Virus genome (UHGV): UHGV-0211193
Source: a virus
Strand: one strand, 5' to 3'
DNA: 42,026 bases
Made by a program: the position numbers and the translations under genes. The notes beneath the pieces were generated by a model. The model made no database searches. It saw only the letters and a program-made list of their open reading frames with translations, and was not told where the DNA came from. Below are positions 1,995 to 40,194 of this stretch, piece after piece. The first letter of the stretch is position 1; each line of letters begins with the position of its first letter.

Positions 1995-2849
1995 ATGAAC
2001 CAAGTAGCAAACACACAACCGCGCTCATTAAAGCAATATGTTTCGGATGATAAAATCCGTCAAAAGTTTGCTGAGATTTTAGGTGAGAAATCAAAAGGGT
2101 TTCTGGCATCGGTAATGCAAGTTGCTAATAGTCCAGCGCTAAAAAATGCAGATCCAGCAACAGTTATTAACGCCGCTATGATGGCAGCGACTTTAGACTT
2201 GCCAATTAATAACAATCTTGGATTTGCTTATATTGTGCCATTTAAGACTGAAGCCCAGTTCCAGATGGGGTATAAGGGATTTATCCAGTTAGCACAGCGT
2301 AGTGGTCAGTTTAGCCGCATTGCAGCTACTCCAGTATATCAAGGGCAGTTAGTATCAGCCGACCCATTACTAGGATATGAGTTTGACTGGACCGTTGAAC
2401 CAGAAGGTGAACCAATTGGATATGTAGCTTTCTTTAAATTGCTAAATGGATTTACAGCAGATCTATACATGAGCAAAAAGAAAGTTGAGGACCATGCGAA
2501 ACGATACAGCCAAACATACAAGCGCGGATTTGGTGTGTGGAAAGACAACTTTGAAGCTATGGCATTAAAAACTGTTTTAAAGCTTCTGCTATCGAAACAA
2601 GCGCCCTTATCAATTGAGATGCAAAAAGCAATTGAACTTGATCAAGGTGTGATTAATGAAGAGGGTAATGCTTCATATATCGACAACGGTGAGCAAGTAG
2701 AAAAGACAGCAGCACGTTTAGTTAGCGAGGAGGATTTCCCAAATTTTGTTAATGCTATTGAATCTGGAAATCTAACTAAAGAACATGCGCTAAATGGCTC
2801 AGTTTACGCGCTAAGCGAAGAACAGCGTAAAAAGGTAGCTTCTCTATGA
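1995..2849 (+). CDS. recT: RecT-family single-strand annealing recombinase.
   Basis: Blocks LGFAYIVPFK...GYKGFIQLAQRSGQFSRIAATPVYQGQ and VWKDNFEAMALKTVLKLLLSKQAPLSIEMQKAIELDQ are collinear with E. coli Rac RecT (LGHAYLLPFG...GYRGMIDLARRSGQIASLSARVV and HWEEMAKKTAIRRLFKYLPVSIEIQRAVSMDE). Confidence 0.85.
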   Translation: MNQVANTQPRSLKQYVSDDKIRQKFAEILGEKSKGFLASVMQVANSPALKNADPATVINAAMMAATLDLPINNNLGFAYIVPFKTEAQFQMGYKGFIQLAQRSGQFSRIAATPVYQGQLVSADPLLGYEFDWTVEPEGEPIGYVAFFKLLNGFTADLYMSKKKVEDHAKRYSQTYKRGFGVWKDNFEAMALKTVLKLLLSKQAPLSIEMQKAIELDQGVINEEGNASYIDNGEQVEKTAARLVSEEDFPNFVNAIESGNLTKEHALNGSVYALSEEQRKKVASL

Positions 2850-32382: not shown

Positions 32383-32802
32383 TTACTCCGAACTTGGGGC
32401 AACCAACTGAATCACACTTGGCTTGTTAATACTCTCACCATTAGAGGTTACATCAATCAATTGCTTATCAAGACCAAGTAGTTTAGCTTTACCCATAGTC
32501 GCAGCAACAGCAGCAGCAGACTGGACTCGCTCACCATCAAGCGCAGCACGTCTAGCCTCTTCCAATTCAAGCAAAAGCGTATCAACTGTAATATTGTGCC
32601 GCTTCTTATGCTCTTTGCGAATCTGCTCGAGCCTTGTTGTAATCTTGTTGTTATCAAGCAAAGCGCTAGCATTCCTATGAACTGTATTCTCATTCATGGA
32701 ATCCGCATCATAAGATTGACGATAAGCTTCACTAGCATTCCCAAGCTCGATATATAATTGACAGAAATTTTCTTGCTTAGGAGTCAAATTTAAATCAGCC
32801 AC
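32383..32802 (-). CDS. terS: Terminase small subunit (Terminase_2 / P27 family); GTG start.
   Basis: LTPKQENFCQLYIELGNASEAYRQSY matches the LTxKQxxFxxxYxxxGNAtqAa signature. RBS GGGAG. Confidence 0.7.
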   Translation of the reverse strand: MADLNLTPKQENFCQLYIELGNASEAYRQSYDADSMNENTVHRNASALLDNNKITTRLEQIRKEHKKRHNITVDTLLLELEEARRAALDGERVQSAAAVAATMGKAKLLGLDKQLIDVTSNGESINKPSVIQLVAPSSE

Positions 32803-34081: not shown

Positions 34082-34326
34082 ACTCTCACCATCCCAAATT
34101 TTTTAACCAACTTTTTAGATTTAACTTTCTTTGGTTTTAGATTCTTATACTTGCGATAAACAATAAAAGGAAATAAAACCACGCTTAAGATAAGAGAAGC
34201 GATACCCATCAAACCCATAAACACATGAGCCAATGCTACCAACAACTCAGCAACCAATTTATGTGAGAGCTTAAACATATTAAAAACATCTACCAATGCA
34301 AGCCAAATTGATTTGATTAAAAGCAT
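34078..34326 (-). CDS. Small membrane protein of 82 aa, the first gene after the late-region promoter.
   Basis: Two hydrophobic helices. RBS AGGGAGAAATGAA. Promoter motif lies 18 nt upstream. Confidence 0.45.
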   Translation of the reverse strand: MLLIKSIWLALVDVFNMFKLSHKLVAELLVALAHVFMGLMGIASLILSVVLFPFIVYRKYKNLKPKKVKSKKLVKKFGMVRV

Positions 34327-34343
34327 TTCATTTCTCCCTATCT

Positions 34344-34360
34344 ATATTCGCTATAGTAAA
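34344..34360 (-). promoter_or_regulatory. Perfect copy of the 17-mer TTTACTATAGCGAATAT (minus orientation) at the start of the late-gene block.
   Basis: Identical to the copies at 1172 and 37652. Immediately preceded by a terminator on the same strand. Confidence 0.55.
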
Positions 34361-34392
34361 TCATATTTATAAGTAATGCAATATTTAAAGCA

Positions 34393-34417
34393 AAAAAAAG
34401 ACTGCTTGGAGGCAGTC
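34393..34417 (-). terminator. Rho-independent terminator ending the leftward early transcript (GACUGC-cuccaa-GCAGUC followed by U8).
   Basis: Perfect 6-bp stem and a T8 run on the minus strand. Confidence 0.7.
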
Positions 34418-34435
34418 GAAGGGAAGTAACTAAAT

Positions 34436-34501
34436 TTAGATGAAGTGAACCGCATGATGAACCCATGCCCTGTACAGATAATTCACTTCTCTAAATTGCC
34501 T
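34436..34501. repeat. Structured repeat unit A: TTAGATGAAGTG, 36-nt loop, CACTTCTCTAA, followed by ATTGCCT.
   Basis: Imperfect 11-bp inverted repeat with a 1-nt bulge. A second copy lies 225 bp away. Confidence 0.5.
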
Positions 34502-34660
34502 GTCTATTTCCAAGCTGTCAGACTACACTGATACACTTTGCATTTTGTCTATGCGCTAATACCACACTGTATCTAGGGGCTAAGGGTTGCCATTTCATTG
34601 TTCCCTTTCGCATCACGTAATCTCCCTTTCGGGTTTTGGCGTTCGTGAATATTTATTAAC

Positions 34661-34727
34661 TTAGATGAAGTAATTTAGCCTTTAACTGCGTATATCCACA
34701 GGGTTTAATTACTTCTCTAAATTGCCT
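34661..34727. repeat. Structured repeat unit B: TTAGATGAAGTA, 37-nt loop, TACTTCTCTAA, followed by ATTGCCT.
   Basis: Same arms as unit A, with a compensatory G-C to A-T change at the stem base. The loop sequence is unrelated. Confidence 0.5.
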
Positions 34728-34978
34728 ACTTTCAGGCGGTCAGGCACTGCGTATGCCAAGTTTAATTAACATCAATCGGGATTGCATGCCCCAAGCTATA
34801 TACAATTAATTAAACCACACCAAACTTTCTTGGCAGTCATTTGTTTACACGCTGATGGCAACGTGCGAATAGTTGCAGCTCCTGCTATTGACTCCTCATA
34901 GTCAAATTAATAACTATGTATCTATGCCAACCATTTGCAATGGATTCACTCAGCAAAACAATATTATCAAAACCACAA

Positions 34979-35260
34979 TTATTTGCAAGTAACAATTTCA
35001 ATAGCAGCTTCAACCGAATTAGCCACGCTTACTTGACCATTCCAATTGGCGTGCCACTCAACTTGATCAGTCGTTAGCTTTTGGCCTGAAGGCGGTTTAT
35101 TACCGTCCTTGATTTCGATTAAAAAGTTTTTACCCTGAAAACCCACCAAAATATCAGGGCAACCCTTGCCAACACTAGAAAGAATTTGGACAGTACACCC
35201 AATCTTTCTAAGTTCTGCTACTATTTCATTTTGGTTTGCGTCAATTTTAGCTGCTCTCAT
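34979..35260 (-). CDS. VRR-NUC-like PD-(D/E)xK nuclease of 93 aa.
   Basis: GCPDILVGFQGKNFLIEIKDG gives a PD...E.K motif. The size is typical of VRR-NUC phage proteins. Confidence 0.4.
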   Translation of the reverse strand: MRAAKIDANQNEIVAELRKIGCTVQILSSVGKGCPDILVGFQGKNFLIEIKDGNKPPSGQKLTTDQVEWHANWNGQVSVANSVEAAIEIVTCK

Positions 35261-35694: not shown

Positions 35695-35967
35695 TTAATT
35701 TGCTATATCCGCCAATGTCATGCCATGAATCGTACCATCGTCCGCCTGAGCTACGGTTTTAATTGATACTGTCCAGATTTGCTTACGTTCAACTCGACCA
35801 GAAACAAGCAATTGAACAAAGTTCCCTTTATAGATTTTAACCAAGTCATCATCATTAACTTCTCGTGTTAATGAATCCACATACTCAGCAGTAGAGATAA
35901 TTTCCCATTCTGCAACCAACTTTTGTTTAACTTTCTTCATTTTGCTTAACCTTTCTTTTGCGGCCAC
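35695..35967 (-). CDS. Hypothetical protein of 90 aa.
   Basis: ORF overlapping the upstream gene. Confidence 0.35.
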   Translation of the reverse strand: MAAKERLSKMKKVKQKLVAEWEIISTAEYVDSLTREVNDDDLVKIYKGNFVQLLVSGRVERKQIWTVSIKTVAQADDGTIHGMTLADIAN

Positions 35968-36784
35968 GTTTTACATCAATTTCATATTCACACTGACAAC
36001 AACGATAACGAGTAATTCCCTTAACGCCATTTTCTGCATTCTTTGTCATTCTAAGATCAGTGTAGTCATGATGCTTACAATAACCCTTAAAAAATCTTTC
36101 ACCTGATGCAATAGCCTTGTTAAAGTTTTCTTTATTAACAGCTAGTCTGCGGTGTCGCTCTGGATCAACCATTTTTAGGCTTTTTTCTTTATCCCTCTCC
36201 TTGCAGCAATCAAAACAAAAAAAGCTTAATTTTTTACCATAAAACCTAAACTCTGCATTTTCGCCATGATGAATACAATCAAACCGAAATGATTTTTTGC
36301 CAGTTCTCTTATGAATCAATCTAAGTTCTGCAATCTTCATTTTTCTCAAAGTAGACGGCTTAAACTCCTTAGCTTTAGGTTTAGGCTTAGGCTTAGGCTT
36401 AGGCTTAGGTTTTGCTATCTTTTTAGGCTTTGGCGGTTTAACTTTTTTAGGTTTTTCCACCTTGACCTTAACTACTTTCTTGCCAACATCTTTACCCTTG
36501 CGAATAGTCCTGTTTCTTTCTTCAATCAATTCGCTTGACGTTTCTTTAATACTTGGGTCAAATACTCGATCCTCTTTCTTTGGTCTCCCTGAACCTTTGG
36601 TTGGGATTTTCCCATCTTTAAATTCGGTATACCCGCATGGAAGTTCGTTTACCTTTCCACCATTAGCTAGAAAAATCTCCAAATCGCTTTCTAGCTTGTT
36701 TCGTAATTTTTGCTTATCCTGCACATCCGAAAAAACATAACCGCCTAAAAATTCTTTTCGGTTAATCAATTCTTCTTTAAGCAT
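35927..36784 (-). CDS. Novel-looking protein of 285 aa with an N-terminal domain, a (KP)6 proline-lysine linker, and a duplicated Cys/His zinc-binding module.
   Basis: AKPKPKPKPKPKPKAK is encoded by a CTTAGG hexamer array. It carries CIHHG...CFDCC and YCKHHD...RYRCCQCEY modules. Confidence 0.5.
   Translation of the reverse strand: MLKEELINRKEFLGGYVFSDVQDKQKLRNKLESDLEIFLANGGKVNELPCGYTEFKDGKIPTKGSGRPKKEDRVFDPSIKETSSELIEERNRTIRKGKDVGKKVVKVKVEKPKKVKPPKPKKIAKPKPKPKPKPKPKAKEFKPSTLRKMKIAELRLIHKRTGKKSFRFDCIHHGENAEFRFYGKKLSFFCFDCCKERDKEKSLKMVDPERHRRLAVNKENFNKAIASGERFFKGYCKHHDYTDLRMTKNAENGVKGITRYRCCQCEYEIDVKRGRKRKVKQNEES
36373..36410. repeat. Tandem hexanucleotide repeat (CTTAGG, about 4 perfect and 2 imperfect copies) encoding the PK repeat.
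   Basis: Seen directly: ctttaggtttaggcttaggcttaggcttaggcttaggtttt. Confidence 0.7.
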
Positions 36785-38574: not shown

Positions 38575-39458
38575 TCTTTATGCTCCAAAAAGTTGTATTG
38601 GTAATCAGGTGTAACATCTCTCATCATCTCTTGTTGCATGTAATCAGCCATAGATGGCGTTTGTCTGCTCTGTGGTGTTGAGTAGCTAGGTTGTTTATTT
38701 TGAATCCAAGATGGATCAAATCCTTTCCAGTCTCTTTGAATACATATTTCTAAAATCTGATTCAATCCCATATTCGATTTATTCACGTTATTCATGAACA
38801 GATCAAATGCTTTTTCAGTGTTAGTCGCCTTCTTGTTTTTTCTAACTGCCATGAATGCAATTGCTAAATCCTCAGTAGCTCCTTTCTCAATTAACGATTT
38901 CTTAAAGTCAAAACGTTTCGGCTTGTCCGAACTCGAAACGAAAGTTTCGTGATTTTCGGTATCAGTGTTTAAGGAATCAGGAATCAAGGTAGAGGGAATC
39001 AGGTTAAGGGAATCAGCACGATCAGTTCCGTTTTGATCATGATTAGTTCCGTTTAAATCAAGATTATTCTCGATATTTTCTAAACCATTAACTTTATTAG
39101 TGTTTTTATTAACACTATTGTCATTAAGGTCAATGTCTGGAATATCGCTACCTTTCTCTCGCTCATTCTTGTGTGGATTTTGATGTTTCATAAAATTTAA
39201 GATTTTTATGTATCGTTGTCCTTGTACGGAATAAATCGAGATAAATCCAGATAAATCCAGATTATTCGTGAGTTGTTCAATATTGCAATCGTCATAAGGC
39301 AATAGCTGAACCTTTAGACGCTTTGGTCGATACTCAAAGCAACCCTTAAAATCAGCAATAGTCCACATCCCAATAAACAAAAGTCTGGTTAATGGGCATA
39401 ATTCTCCAAGCTCTTCATTCTCAAAAAATGAAGGTTTAATATTTCTAGCTCTAGCCAT
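38571..39458 (-). CDS. Putative replication initiator (lambda O-like organiser) with internal origin iterons and a low-complexity linker.
   Basis: N-terminal globular region, an N/D/S/T-rich linker, and direct DNA repeats plus an AT-rich tract inside the coding sequence. Confidence 0.4.
   Translation of the reverse strand: MARARNIKPSFFENEELGELCPLTRLLFIGMWTIADFKGCFEYRPKRLKVQLLPYDDCNIEQLTNNLDLSGFISIYSVQGQRYIKILNFMKHQNPHKNEREKGSDIPDIDLNDNSVNKNTNKVNGLENIENNLDLNGTNHDQNGTDRADSLNLIPSTLIPDSLNTDTENHETFVSSSDKPKRFDFKKSLIEKGATEDLAIAFMAVRKNKKATNTEKAFDLFMNNVNKSNMGLNQILEICIQRDWKGFDPSWIQNKQPSYSTPQSRQTPSMADYMQQEMMRDVTPDYQYNFLEHKE
38960..39270. repeat. Candidate origin of replication inside the initiator gene. 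It has GGAATCAG in 4 copies (38973-39016), an AT-rich tract (39040-39230) and ATAAATCCAG in 3 tandem copies (39231-39260).
   Basis: Direct repeats seen in the sequence. The architecture parallels the lambda ori within the O gene. Confidence 0.4.
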
Positions 39459-40194
39459 TTATTAGAATCTCCATAGACTCCCTAAACTGAGTCCAGTTTT
39501 TAACATCCAGAGCAACCTGTTTTAGCTCGTCAGTAGTTATGCCGCACTCTACAGCTTGCATCATCCAGTCTAAAGATTTTCTTTCATCCACATAAGAAAT
39601 TCTATTTTTTAAAATCCCTCGTATGTATCTAATCTCTTTTTCTGAGTCACTTTTTCTGTTGAAAAATGCAACTTTTGGAATTGCTAAAAACATTGCAGAA
39701 TGATCAAGTTCTCCATCAGTGGTATACACATCTCGCAAATCATCAATGGCTTGTAAAATTTCGACTAATTCAAATTTTGAAAGCCAATTTTTAATCGTGG
39801 ATATTCCGTAATCATTAACTTTTGCACAAATTCTTTCCTCAATTCTTGTTTTGATATTTTCAAGAATCTCATTATCAAAGTTCTTTAACTCATCTCTCCA
39901 ATCAAGCATCATTTGAAGTTGAGACCTTCTTTCGTCTAATTCTTCAAGCATTCGTCTTTGCTTTTCAATTACACTATTGTCATCAAGAAGCCTATGTTTT
40001 TTCCCTGAGTTGCATGGTTGGCATGAAGTTATCAAATTTAAGATGTCATTATCCCCACCATTGTTTACTGGATTAATGTGATCCACGTGCAATACAACAT
40101 CAGGCGCAGATGCTCCACAATATTGGCATTTAAATTGATCTCTTTTAAAAACCTCAAATCTAATTTTCTTTGAAAGCGGCTCTCTTTTTGACAT
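39451..40194 (-). CDS. HNH endonuclease of 247 aa with a C-terminal extension.
   Basis: CQYCG...LHVDHINPVNNGGDNDILNLITSCQPCNSGKKHR matches the canonical HNH motif (C..C...DHI.P...GG...N....C..CN..K). Confidence 0.7.
   Translation of the reverse strand: MSKREPLSKKIRFEVFKRDQFKCQYCGASAPDVVLHVDHINPVNNGGDNDILNLITSCQPCNSGKKHRLLDDNSVIEKQRRMLEELDERRSQLQMMLDWRDELKNFDNEILENIKTRIEERICAKVNDYGISTIKNWLSKFELVEILQAIDDLRDVYTTDGELDHSAMFLAIPKVAFFNRKSDSEKEIRYIRGILKNRISYVDERKSLDWMMQAVECGITTDELKQVALDVKNWTQFRESMEILING

What the first reader, a model, noticed from the sequence alone, without database searches (positions are those of the whole stretch)
34418..34978. 560-bp non-coding stretch at the early/late junction containing two copies of a bulged hairpin element with a compensatory base change
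A 560-bp region between the last leftward early gene and the early-operon terminator has no plausible ORF. It holds two copies, 225 bp apart, of an element built as arm TTAGATGAAGT(G/A), a 36-37-nt internal region, then arm (C/T)ACTTCTCTAA, followed by ATTGCCT.
- The arms form an 11-bp stem with a conserved 1-nt bulge.
- The only arm difference is a G-C to A-T compensatory pair at the stem base.
- The internal regions are unrelated in sequence.
Conserved structure with free loop sequence is the signature of a selected RNA or single-stranded DNA structure. The layout loosely recalls attC-like folded recombination sites, paired sRNA hairpins, or pac or regulatory sites. Two CCCTTTCG(GG) GNRA-type mini-hairpins lie between the copies.
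Basis: seen in the sequence. Interest (0 to 1): 0.65.

Follow-up and report, generated by a model that had tools for sequence, protein, structure and literature searches.

The report
Phage RNA clamp holding swappable cargo
The two bulged hairpins are real: each is a conserved RNA "clamp" stem that closes off an interchangeable small RNA (often a tRNA look-alike in related phages), and both sit in a previously undescribed, densely structured non-coding RNA locus shared by unrelated groups of Acinetobacter phages.

Summary
The functional strand is the minus strand, which is the sense strand of all neighbouring genes.

Each copy is a 17-bp stem with one invariant bulged A: 5' AAY-UUAGA-GAAGUG-AAU / cargo / GUU-CACUUC-A-UCUAA-GUU 3'. 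I found 68 such cassettes in 60 Acinetobacter-phage loci:
- 15 arm versions are 99% paired, and 8 of 17 pairs show compensatory changes.
- There are 44 unrelated cargos of 29-168 nt. Several are anticodon-less tRNA mimics, and some carry their own covariation.
- 64 of 65 cassettes lie sense to the flanking genes.

The family occurs in Obolenskvirus-like, AM24/Herod/BS46-like and temperate TRS1-like phages. There it sits beside tRNAs, GOLLD RNA or Pseudomonadales-1 RNA.

Between the window's two copies lies a new ~120-nt five-helix domain, with 15 of 23 pairs compensatory. The whole stretch (about 34955-34391) looks like one ncRNA unit: its own promoter-like site, M0/M1/M2 hairpins, recurring punctuation hairpins and a terminator. 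It is 99.8% identical to its closest relative, where the flanking genes are 87-91%.

There is no Rfam 15 match and I found no literature. attC-like, pac or cos readings are not supported.

The best inferred mechanism is a closing stem that insulates and defines small RNAs within a processed polycistronic ncRNA, and perhaps serves as a binding handle. The biological function is unknown.

The parts
34961..34988 (-). Promoter-like site for the ncRNA unit: TTGCAA, 16 nt, TAATAT. It overlaps the stop codon of the upstream 93-aa gene.
   Evidence: Read. It matches 8 of 12 consensus positions, so the scan did not list it. At the homologous position relatives have consensus sites: TTGACA-N17-TAATAT in L071 and TTGACA-N18-TATTAT in L074, followed by the same ...TTGAAYCC leader. 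Inferred, not shown.
34931..34943 (-). M0, the 5' leader hairpin CCAUU-GCA-AAUGG.
   Evidence: It covaries with CCAUG-CGCGA-CAUGG (L066, L071, L074) and CUGUG-GGCGA-CACAG (AP22, L073).
34857..34877 (-). M1, a conserved hairpin block UGCAACUAUUCGCACGUUGCC.
   Evidence: It is conserved in AP22, IME-Ap7, BS46, KEN_01, YNAF and XC1 and in L066, L067, L069, L071, L073 and L074. It resembles the anticodon-3'/variable region of the AM24 tRNA-Tyr.
34818..34839 (-). Punctuation hairpin 1: UGAC-UGCCAA-GAAAG-UUUGGUG.
   Evidence: It has the same motif as the hairpins that precede cassettes in L073 and L074 (UGACCGCCAAGAAAGUUUGGCAAU). Sequence read.
34760..34815 (-). M2, a hairpin with a 10-bp outer stem, invariant internal loops (UUGUAUAUAGC / UUGAUG) and an inner stem UUGGGG/UCCCGA.
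   Evidence: The core is invariant in window, AP22, Herod, IME-Ap7, L004, L006 and L009. The outer stem covaries: GUUUAAUUAA/UUAAUUAAAC against UUUUAAUUAA/UUAAUUAAAA against AUAUAGGUAAA/UUUACUUAUAU. The MFE fold recovers it.
34743..34757 (-). Small hairpin GGCA-UACGCAG-UGCC.
   Evidence: It covaries with GAUAG-UACGCAG-CUAUC in AP22. The MFE fold recovers it.
34724..34742 (-). Punctuation hairpin 2: UGAC-CGCCU-GAAAGU-AGGC.
   Evidence: The motif UGAC-stem-GRAAAGW-stem-AAY precedes most cassettes. Its stems covary: GCUAG/CUAGC, GCCU/AGGC, GCUG/CAGC, GCCAA/UUGGC, ACUCG/CGGGU.
34658..34723 (-).
34530..34648 (-). Central domain: a new structured RNA of about 120 nt with helices Pa to Pe, a GAAA tetraloop hairpin and a conserved CAAUGAAA loop.
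   Evidence: RNAalifold gives 12 of 24 pairs compensatory. Pair counts are 97% paired with 0 of 500 shuffles as good. The covariance model finds 16 matches, with 15 of 23 pairs compensatory. No Rfam hit.
34498..34520 (-). Punctuation hairpin 3: UGAC-AGCUU-GGAAAUAGAC-AGGC.
34433..34497 (-). The cargo is CUGUACAGG plus the hairpin GCAUG-GGUUCAU-CAUGC.
   Evidence: The same cargo type occurs in Acjo_20 and L112 inside a different, fully compensated stem version.
34391..34417 (-). Intrinsic terminator GACUGCCUCCAAGCAGUC followed by U8, ending the ncRNA unit.
34360..34389 (-). Promoter-like site (TTTAAA, 18 nt, TATGAT) for the downstream gene block. It is context, not part of the RNA.

Best explanation
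**What the computations show.** The 560-bp stretch is a dedicated non-coding RNA locus read on the minus strand. The two 'bulged hairpins' are two copies of a generic RNA clamp. The clamp is a 17-bp helix formed by the sequences immediately 5' and 3' of a small cargo RNA. It has an invariant bulged A and a nearly invariant cargo-proximal half (AGUGAAU / GUUCACU). The distal half is free to change as long as pairing is kept. The clamp is a module. Across Acinetobacter phages it encloses about 44 unrelated cargos, including anticodon-less tRNA mimics. It is usually preceded by a small UGAC-stem-GAAAG-stem-AAY 'punctuation' hairpin. It is always sense to transcription and sits in or next to phage tRNA/ncRNA islands. 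In this window the two clamps carry short non-tRNA hairpin cargos and flank a separate new five-helix domain.

**What I infer about the mechanism.** The locus is transcribed as one polycistronic ncRNA of about 520-560 nt, from its own promoter or by read-through, ending at the terminator at 34417-34391. Each clamp pairs the two ends of its cargo. I propose three effects:
1. It insulates the cargo's folding from its neighbours.
2. It defines where the precursor is cut. Candidates are a double-strand-specific nuclease such as RNase III, or RNase E in the AU-rich single-stranded joints AAU / GUUUAAAU.
3. It leaves each released small RNA with paired, exonuclease-protected ends.

The sequence invariance of the proximal half and of the bulged A suggests the clamp is also a common recognition handle for a still unknown partner, either a protein or a tertiary RNA contact. 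At the DNA level, the identical arms probably also let phages swap modules by short-homology recombination; this phage encodes RecT.

The biological role of the cargos and of the central domain remains unknown.
For: **The clamp is real and selected as RNA.**
- There are 68 cassettes in 60 loci.
- The 15 distinct arm pairs are 99.2% paired, 8 of 17 pairs have compensatory changes, the bulged A is invariant, 0 of 500 shuffles do as well, and slid registers pair 48% or less.
- Three stem versions keep the geometry of 5 bp, a bulged A, then 6 bp.
- The U-G and G-U pairs would be A-C mismatches on the other strand.
- Minus-strand MFE is -162.5 kcal/mol (z -3.9) against -141.5 (z -2.5) for the plus strand.

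**Orientation and transcription.**
- 64 of 65 cassettes are sense to the flanking coding strand.
- There is a terminator at the 3' end and consensus promoters in relatives.

**The cargos are functional RNAs.**
- Rfam tRNA scores are 44.7 bits in Herod, 45.3 in IME-Ap7, 47.3 in Acjo_20 and 35.9 in L069.
- Two cargo types show internal covariation.

**Context is tRNA/ncRNA islands.** Neighbours include GOLLD at 225 bits plus tRNAs in Herod and Pseudomonadales-1 RNA plus tRNA-Arg in L019.

**Modules shuffle.** L009 has M2 plus one cassette only. Herod lacks cassette A. Acjo_20 has two cassettes and no central domain.

**Strong constraint.** The block 34391-34877 is 99.8% identical to L007, where the flanking genes are 87.2% and 91.0%.

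**Central domain.** 15 of 23 pairs are compensatory.

**Processing theme.** A sub-threshold hammerhead-like motif occupies a module slot after a punctuation hairpin in L064. RecT is encoded at 1995-2849.
Against: - There are no expression data. Transcription, transcript ends and cleavage are all inferred.
- A 17-bp bulged helix is short for a classical RNase III substrate, and nothing here identifies the nuclease.
- Insulation alone would not require the observed sequence invariance of AGUGAAU/GUUCACU.
- Most arm diversity falls into three or four lineages, so the number of independent compensatory events is smaller than the cell counts suggest.
- Inverted-repeat covariation could also arise at the DNA level. 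Only the wobble pairs, the asymmetric bulge, the sense bias and the tRNA-like cargos argue for RNA.
- The near-identity to L007 could reflect recent exchange rather than selection.
- Neither cargo in this window is tRNA-like, so these copies might be reduced relics.
Confidence: 0.55

Rival explanations
1. The clamp is mainly a protein-binding handle, and the cargos are decoys. As in Y RNAs (a Ro60-binding stem plus a tRNA-like module), a host or phage RNA-binding protein would recognise AGUGAAU/GUUCACU and the bulged A. The clamp would then present tRNA mimics or other small RNAs, for example to titrate tRNA-targeting or RNA-sensing host defence or RNA-quality-control factors.
For: - The proximal half-stem and the bulged A are invariant in sequence while the distal half only keeps pairing.
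- Bulged adenines in stems are classic protein-recognition features (own knowledge: MS2 and PP7 operators).
- Many cargos are tRNA elbow mimics whose anticodon loop is replaced by a tetraloop or carries A33.
- YrlA has the same stem plus tRNA-mimic logic and occurs in phages (PMC4201824).
Against: - The YrlA/Ro motif GNCGAAN0-1G is absent, and Rfam gives no Y RNA or YrlA hit.
- No TROVE or other RNA-binding domain was found in the 20 ORFs scanned.
- I found no protein family shared by the three phage groups, though I did not compare them systematically.
- The window's own cargos are not tRNA-like.
Confidence: 0.22
2. The primary function is at the DNA level. The conserved inverted arms would be recombination sites, either attC-like folded single-strand sites or short-homology hotspots, whose purpose is exchange of ncRNA/tRNA modules between phages.
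For: - Modules between and inside the arms are shuffled among phages.
- The arms are identical across unrelated phage groups.
- This phage encodes RecT.
- attC sites also have an extrahelical base and a variable centre, and they fold strand-specifically (own knowledge).
Against: - No integrase was found among the ORFs scanned, and there is no attC R/L-box consensus.
- The arms never flank ORF cassettes.
- The orientation is strictly sense (64 of 65), which homologous recombination would not require.
- The interiors are structured RNAs with their own covariation.
- Alternative stem versions preserve pairing and the bulge rather than sequence.
- Recombination is more likely a by-product of the conserved arms.
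Confidence: 0.1
3. In this particular phage the two copies are decaying relics of a tRNA island acquired from another phage. They would be empty clamps that have lost their tRNA-like cargos and have no present function.
For: - The window has no tRNA or tRNA-like hit.
- The window's cargos are among the shortest in the family.
- M1 resembles part of a tRNA-Tyr gene.
- The related phage L009 manages with one cassette and no central domain.
Against: - The block is 99.8% identical to L007 against 87-91% for the flanking genes.
- Cargo B is a conserved cargo type with covariation in A. johnsonii phages.
- Short cargos recur in several lineages.
- Both clamps are perfectly paired.
- The unit keeps a promoter-like site and a terminator.
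Confidence: 0.08
4. The element is a packaging (pac or cos) site, a replication origin, or a mimic of a type I-F CRISPR repeat (an RNA anti-CRISPR).
For: - The element lies between the replication module and the morphogenesis module.
- The 3' arm starts with GUUCACU and the 5' arm reads (C/U)UUAGAGAA. These resemble the two ends of type I-F repeats, GTTCACT...CTTAGAAA (repeat sequences confirmed in the literature).
Against: - The small terminase gene is 1.6 kb away.
- The element also occurs inside tRNA clusters of 97-kb phages and after tRNA-Arg in temperate phages, which does not fit a pac, cos or ori role.
- The Cas6f hairpin of the repeat is missing, cargo lengths are 29-168 nt rather than 32, and the handle-like similarity is lost in the variant stems.
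Confidence: 0.03

Closest known systems
Bacterial and phage Y RNAs of the YrlA type (Ro60/Rsr-associated; Chen et al. 2014, PMC4201824)
   Same: The 5' and 3' ends form a long stem, with a conserved asymmetric feature, that closes a module mimicking tRNA (D and T arms, no decoding). Some are phage-encoded. The design is modular.
   Different: - The Ro-binding motif GNCGAAN0-1G is absent, and there is no Ro60/TROVE gene nearby.
- There is no Rfam hit.
- Here the clamp joins the tRNA mimic at its acceptor end, the mimic keeps an anticodon-arm stub, and most cargos are not tRNA-like at all.
- The clamp occurs in arrays within a larger ncRNA locus.
GOLLD and ROOL large ornate phage RNAs (Rfam RF02032, RF03087)
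   Same: They are phage-encoded, of unknown function, located in or next to tRNA islands, and probably co-transcribed with tRNAs. GOLLD has a variable linker that can contain tRNAs (PMC12286853, PMC5737381). In Herod and AM24, GOLLD lies in the same tRNA cluster about 1 kb downstream of the clamp and central-domain modules.
   Different: - There is no sequence or structure match.
- The modules here are small (60-170 nt) and shuffle independently.
- Obolenskvirus-like phages have the clamp locus without GOLLD.
Processing stems of polycistronic stable-RNA precursors (RNase III stems flanking 16S and 23S rRNA; T7 R1.1-type sites; RNase III and RNase E steps in T4 tRNA-cluster maturation). This comparison rests on my own knowledge.
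   Same: The sequences flanking a functional RNA pair into a duplex with a bulge or internal loop. The setting is a multi-RNA transcript with tRNAs, with AU-rich single-stranded joints beside the stems.
   Different: - Cleavage has not been shown here.
- The helix is only 17 bp.
- The same stem sequence is reused for dozens of different cargos and across unrelated phages, which is not a feature of known processing stems.
Integron attC recombination sites
   Same: Both are imperfect inverted repeats with a conserved extrahelical base and a centre of variable sequence and length (57-141 nt in attC). Folding is strand-specific, and both are associated with modular exchange.
   Different: - There is no integrase and no R''/R' (RYYYAAC/GTTRRRY) consensus.
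- The element is not placed at the ends of ORF cassettes.
- The centres are structured RNAs, some tRNA-like.
- Sense orientation is strict, and the evidence favours an RNA-level constraint.
tRNA-like processing or stability modules such as mascRNA at the MALAT1 3' end, and ribozymes that mature phage tRNAs (theta and hammerhead ribozymes in tRNA islands). This comparison rests on my own knowledge.
   Same: tRNA mimics or self-cleaving motifs are embedded in longer transcripts to define RNA ends. A hammerhead-like motif occupies a module slot in L064.
   Different: The tRNA mimics here sit inside a closed clamp rather than at a transcript end. RNase P or RNase Z cleavage has not been tested.

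Membership tests
YrlA / bacterial Y RNA | Match to the Rfam covariance models for Y RNA or YrlA. | tested here: not met
   No such hit at E up to 10 over window 34200-35100, nor at E up to 5 in AP22, Herod and IME-Ap7.
YrlA / bacterial Y RNA | Conserved Ro60/Rsr-binding motif GNCGAAN0-1G in the 5' strand of the closing stem (PMC4201824). | tested here: not met
   The 5' strand is AAYUUAGAGAAGUGAAU, or UUUAGAGAGUGAAU in the variant. The motif is not present.
YrlA / bacterial Y RNA | Encoded next to a Ro60 (TROVE-domain) gene. | tested here: not met
   Ten neighbouring ORFs and ten further ORFs gave no TROVE hit. The remaining long ORFs lie in the block that BLAST assigns to terminase, portal and other structural genes. 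I did not scan all ORFs.
YrlA / bacterial Y RNA | A tRNA-like domain enclosed by the stem. | tested here: inconclusive
   Not met in the window. Met in relatives: Herod, IME-Ap7, Acjo_20 and L069 score 36-47 bits on the Rfam tRNA model.
GOLLD RNA (RF02032) | Match to the conserved 3' domain model. | tested here: not met
   No hit anywhere in the window. GOLLD is a separate element in Herod (L002 548-180, 225 bits) and AM24.
tRNA gene | Cloverleaf with a 7-bp acceptor stem and a 7-nt anticodon loop with U33, detectable by ARAGORN or Rfam. | tested here: not met
   There are none in the window. The tRNA-like cargos in relatives have truncated acceptor stems, no CCA, and either A33 or a tetraloop in place of the anticodon loop.
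Integron attC site | R''/R' core sites (RYYYAAC ... GTTRRRY) at the base of the folded site. | tested here: not met
   The flanks are ...GGCAAU|UUAGAG and UCUAA|GUUUAAA or GUUAAUA. Neither fits the consensus.
Integron attC site | An integron integrase (IntI) and an array of ORF cassettes each ending in an attC. | tested here: inconclusive
   No integrase was found among the 20 ORFs scanned, but not every ORF was scanned. The sequences between the sites are ncRNA modules, not ORFs.
MITE / IS terminal inverted repeats | Direct target-site duplications, dispersed copies in either orientation, and a conserved interior. | tested here: not met
   The flanks are complementary (AAU/GUU), not direct repeats. 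The window's copies occur only in this locus. 64 of 65 elements are sense-oriented. The interiors are unrelated.
RNase III processing stem | Cleavage by RNase III within the duplex in vivo or in vitro. | not testable with these tools
   Only the anatomy is available: a 17-bp duplex with one bulge that flanks stable-RNA-like cargos in a multi-RNA locus.
Type I-F CRISPR repeat mimic (RNA anti-CRISPR) | A repeat-like unit that includes the Cas6f-binding hairpin. | tested here: not met
   Only the repeat ends are resembled (GUUCACU, UUAGAGAA). The hairpin GCCGUAUAGGCAG has no counterpart. Cargo length is 29-168 nt.

The most novel reading that the evidence does not exclude
The bulged clamp is the universal 'socket' of an RNA-cassette system in Acinetobacter phages, an RNA-level counterpart of an integron. 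Unrelated phages would exchange small structured RNAs through the identical arms and display them on a common handle. The cargos include anticodon-less tRNA mimics, ribozyme-like modules and new domains. A shared, still unknown partner would read AGUGAAU/GUUCACU plus the bulged A. One possible role is as decoys or modulators of host tRNA-targeting or RNA-sensing defence or RNA-processing machinery. Alternatively, the whole RNA of about 520 nt could assemble into a larger ornate particle like GOLLD or ROOL.
Probability: 0.2. Interest if true: 0.85.

Novelty: new variant of a known kind. Interest (0 to 1): 0.68.

Why it matters
- Phage tRNA islands are known to harbour enigmatic structured RNAs (GOLLD, ROOL) whose functions are still unknown. 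This locus adds at least two undescribed conserved RNA elements: the clamp cassette and a five-helix domain. They occur in phages of a priority pathogen that are being developed for therapy, and they are more conserved than the neighbouring genes.
- The clamp is unusual because one stem, conserved in sequence and geometry, is reused for dozens of unrelated cargos in lytic and temperate phages of different families. That makes it a tractable handle. Pull-downs, end-mapping and compensatory mutagenesis on a 17-bp stem could reveal a partner, and so a function for phage tRNA mimics.
- There is a practical consequence for annotation. In several deposited genomes this region is annotated as tiny 'hypothetical proteins' or as tRNA-Lys, and both are probably wrong.

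Tried and rejected
- **Rfam 15.** I ran the gathering threshold on the whole window and E-value mode on 34200-35100. Only noise came back (SNORA61, miRNAs).
- **ARAGORN.** No tRNA or tmRNA in the window.
- **Genome-collection scan for the 3' arm 18-mer.** It gave nine hits in unrelated taxa, none with a 5' arm. These are chance matches and serve as a negative control.
- **Metagenome scan with a central-domain pattern.** It gave six chance hits in coding sequence and no homologue. The pattern may have been too strict.
- **Viral scan with a degenerate cargo-B pattern.** It gave 89 mostly chance hits; only L007 and L112 were real.
- **Literature searches.** Searches for Acinetobacter phage ncRNA, tRNA-like elements, GOLLD and transcriptomes found nothing describing this locus.
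- **YrlA/Ro.** Rejected on the motif, on Rfam and on gene context.
- **attC, MITE, pac or cos.** Rejected on the anatomy.
- **I-F CRISPR-repeat resemblance.** Noted, but judged coincidental. I could not confirm my recalled A. baumannii repeat sequence in the library.
- **M1 as a tRNA-Tyr relic.** It may be one, but M1 is also a conserved module in loci without tRNA-Tyr, so this stays open.
- **Hammerhead in L064.** It scores only 21.8 bits against a gathering score of 52, so I treat it as a lead.
Full report
**Setting.** The window is a divergent relative of the AP22/AB1 group (Obolenskvirus-like) of Acinetobacter myophages. All genes from about 5 kb to 41 kb lie on the minus strand. The region 34418-34978 lies between a 93-aa gene (34979-35260) and an intrinsic terminator on the minus strand (stem 34417-34400 plus U8). 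A promoter-like site and small genes follow, and then the small terminase gene (32383-32802). No ORF longer than 42 aa lies in the stretch.

Both copies, the 225-bp spacing, the identical 17-mer, the single bulged base and the G-C to A-T exchange are present. Read on the minus strand, each element is AAU-UUAGA-GAAGUG-AAU ... GUU-CACUUC-A-UCUAA-(G/A)UU. That is 17 base pairs with one bulged A, at 34666 and 34441.

**The arms are conserved in relatives and always close a variable interior.**
- A BLAST of the region hit only Acinetobacter phages. These were not just Obolenskvirus-like phages but also the unrelated 94-102-kb phages AM24, Herod, Bestia, Mithridates, BS46 and Ab15.
- Exact-pattern scans of IMG/VR with two 3'-arm versions returned 35 and 14 contigs.
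- In total I found 68 cassettes in 60 loci, with 15 distinct arm pairs and 44 distinct interiors of 29-168 nt.
- As a control, nine chance matches to the 18-mer in 185,579 bacterial and archaeal genomes had no 5' arm.

**The pairing is under selection at the RNA level.**
- Over the 15 arm versions, 99.2% of cells are paired and 8 of 17 pairs show changes on both sides.
- The bulged A is invariant. No shuffle of 500 reached the observed values, and shifted registers pair 48% or less.
- A second stem type (UUUAG-AGAGUG / CACUCU-A-CUAAA) keeps the exact geometry. It can carry the same cargo as the window's copy B. A third type (UUUGG-AGAGUG / CACUCG-A-CCAAA) keeps it apart from one A-G mismatch next to the bulge.
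- Two positions are usually U-G, and single variants introduce G-U or U-G. These would be A-C mismatches on the other strand.
- The minus-strand RNA folds 21 kcal/mol better than the plus strand, with z-scores of -3.9 against -2.5.
- 64 of 65 cassettes lie sense to the surrounding coding strand, and none lies antisense.

**What sits inside the clamps.**
- In Herod, IME-Ap7, Acjo_20, L066, L069, L073 and L040/L046 the cargo contains a tRNA-like fold, scoring 36-47 bits on the Rfam tRNA model.
- These are not normal tRNAs. The acceptor stem is short and has no CCA. The anticodon loop either carries A33 or is replaced by a tetraloop.
- Herod's deposited 'tRNA-Lys(ttt)' is one of these.
- Other cargos are unrelated hairpins or multi-helix RNAs.
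- Two cargo types recur in distant phages with internal covariation. One of them is the window's copy B cargo (CUGUACAGG plus GCAUG-loop-CAUGC, against GCACG-loop-CGUGC in Acjo_20).
- The window's copy A cargo simply prolongs the helix to about 25 bp.

**Context in other phages.**
- In Herod and AM24 the modules sit at the head of a tRNA cluster that also contains a GOLLD RNA (225 and 159 bits).
- In temperate TRS1-like phages a single cassette follows tRNA-Arg(TCT) by six bases. It lies just downstream of a Pseudomonadales-1 RNA and upstream of the HNH/terminase genes.
- Metagenomic relatives carry true tRNAs next to cassettes. In L064, a hammerhead-like core (CUGAUGAG...CGAAAC...GUC) occupies a module slot, though it scores only 21.8 bits.
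- GOLLD and ROOL are described as phage RNAs of unknown function near tRNA islands, with tRNAs sometimes in the GOLLD linker (PMC12286853, PMC5737381).

**The rest of the 560 bp is also structured RNA.**
- Between the two copies lies a domain of about 120 nt (34648-34530) with five helices.
- RNAalifold found 12 of 24 pairs compensatory.
- Counting on my structure gave 97% pairing, 0 of 500 shuffles as good, and 41% or less in slid registers.
- A covariance model found 16 matches, including new divergent ones (L069 and L064). In that alignment 15 of 23 pairs show changes on both sides. That alignment is fitted to the model, so it leans towards the structure.
- Upstream lie M2 (34815-34760), a hairpin with invariant internal loops and a covarying outer stem, then M1 (34877-34857) and a 5' leader hairpin that covaries.
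- A short motif, UGAC-stem-GRAAAGW-stem-AAY, recurs before M2, before each cassette, and in relatives before other modules. Its stems covary freely.
- Relatives have consensus sigma-70 promoters just upstream of the leader. The window has TTGCAA-N16-TAATAT at the same place.
- So the unit appears to be: promoter, leader, M1, hairpin, M2, hairpin, cassette A, central domain, hairpin, cassette B, terminator.

**Modularity and constraint.**
- Modules come and go independently. L009, which shares the upstream gene, has only M2, one cassette with a 114-nt cargo, and a terminator.
- Herod lacks cassette A. Acjo_20 has two adjacent cassettes and no central domain. Other contigs have a different 'type 2' domain after the cassette.
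- The block 34391-34877 is nevertheless 99.8% identical to contig L007, whose flanking genes are 87.2% and 91.0% identical.
- The phage encodes a RecT recombinase. The identical arms are therefore plausible crossover points, but I regard that as a by-product of their conservation.

**What it is not.**
- There is no Rfam 15 family at gathering or permissive thresholds, and no tRNA or tmRNA.
- It is not YrlA/Y RNA: no GNCGAAN0-1G motif, no Ro60 gene and no model hit.
- It is not an attC site: no core consensus, no integrase among the ORFs scanned, and no ORF cassettes.
- It is not a MITE: there are no target duplications, the orientation is strictly sense, and the interiors are unrelated.
- Nothing supports a pac, cos or ori role.
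- The arm ends resemble type I-F CRISPR repeat ends. The resemblance lacks the Cas6f hairpin and is lost in the variant stems, so I treat it as coincidence.
- Literature searches found no description of the locus.

**Mechanism.** Three things are shown: the element is a strand-specific RNA structure, it is a reusable clamp around diverse small RNAs, and it is embedded in a dedicated, highly constrained ncRNA locus akin to phage tRNA islands. What follows is inferred. The clamp pairs the two ends of each cargo within a polycistronic precursor. This would insulate folding, mark processing sites and protect the ends of the released RNAs. The invariant proximal half and the bulged A hint at a common binding partner. 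The function of the cargos and of the central domain is unknown. Expression, cleavage and binding partners need experiments.

**Verdict.** The feature is real and previously undescribed, as far as Rfam 15 and the searchable literature show. It is a new variant within the broad kind of structured RNAs and tRNA mimics associated with phage tRNA islands. I rate interest at about 0.68.

Noticed in passing
L002 (phage Herod) 180-548 minus; L010 (AM24) 1-322 minus: A GOLLD RNA (RF02032; 225 and 159 bits) lies in the tRNA cluster of the 97-kb Acinetobacter phages Herod and AM24. It is unannotated in both records, and no paper in the library links GOLLD to Acinetobacter phages.
   Followed up: partly
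L019 3896-4063 plus: A Pseudomonadales-1 RNA (RF03046, 115 bits) lies just upstream of tRNA-Arg(TCT) and a clamp cassette in TRS1-like temperate Acinetobacter phages. This is another ncRNA in the same kind of island.
   Followed up: no
L064 499-546 plus: A hammerhead-like core (CUGAUGAG, stem II, CGAAAC, stem III, GUC) lies directly after a punctuation hairpin. Rfam HH9 scores only 21.8 bits against a gathering score of 52.
   Followed up: partly
L066, L071, L073, L074 (downstream of their cassettes; sequences): A second, different conserved domain ('type 2') follows cassettes where the window has its central domain: CCCGUGRUACAUCGGGAGCUUGUGAAA ... AACAAGCCAAAGUAURAAUGUAUC. It has apparent covariation in L073 and L074.
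   Followed up: no
L002 1375-1441 (Herod 'tRNA-Lys(ttt)'); L012 1204-1693 (KEN_01 'hypothetical proteins' of 29-43 aa): These deposited annotations over this locus look wrong. The Herod 'tRNA-Lys' is a clamp cargo with a 4-bp acceptor stem, no CCA and A33. The tiny CDSs in KEN_01 and other records overlap covarying RNA helices.
   Followed up: partly
window 35927-36784 minus: A 285-aa protein has a lysine/proline-rich linker, a Cys-rich C-terminal half and a sub-threshold match to the SutA RNA-polymerase-binding domain (E 1.8e-5, 24.4 bits against a cut-off of 29.3). It could be a phage transcription factor, about 1 kb upstream of the ncRNA unit.
   Followed up: no
window 1995-2849 plus; 39451-40194 minus: A RecT-family recombinase (E 1e-45) lies on the plus-strand arm, and an HNH endonuclease lies in the early region.
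   Followed up: no
window 34878-34942 compared with L007: The leader segment between the promoter-like site and M1 is replaced by unrelated sequence in L007, which carries another M0 hairpin type. The next 485 nt are 99.8% identical, so there is a sharp mosaic boundary inside the ncRNA unit.
   Followed up: partly
clamp arms, e.g. window 34433-34450 and 34481-34497: The 3' arm starts GUUCACU and the 5' arm reads UUAGAGAA. These resemble the two ends of type I-F CRISPR repeats (GTTCACT...CTTAGAAA). The resemblance is probably coincidental, but I did not compare the arms with Acinetobacter repeats.
   Followed up: partly
L002 about 1250-1350 minus; L010 about 1040-1130 minus: A further tRNA-like sequence lies directly after cassette B in Herod and AM24: GCGGAG...GGUUUGAUUCCAC...CUCCGCUCCA. 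ARAGORN does not call it.
   Followed up: no
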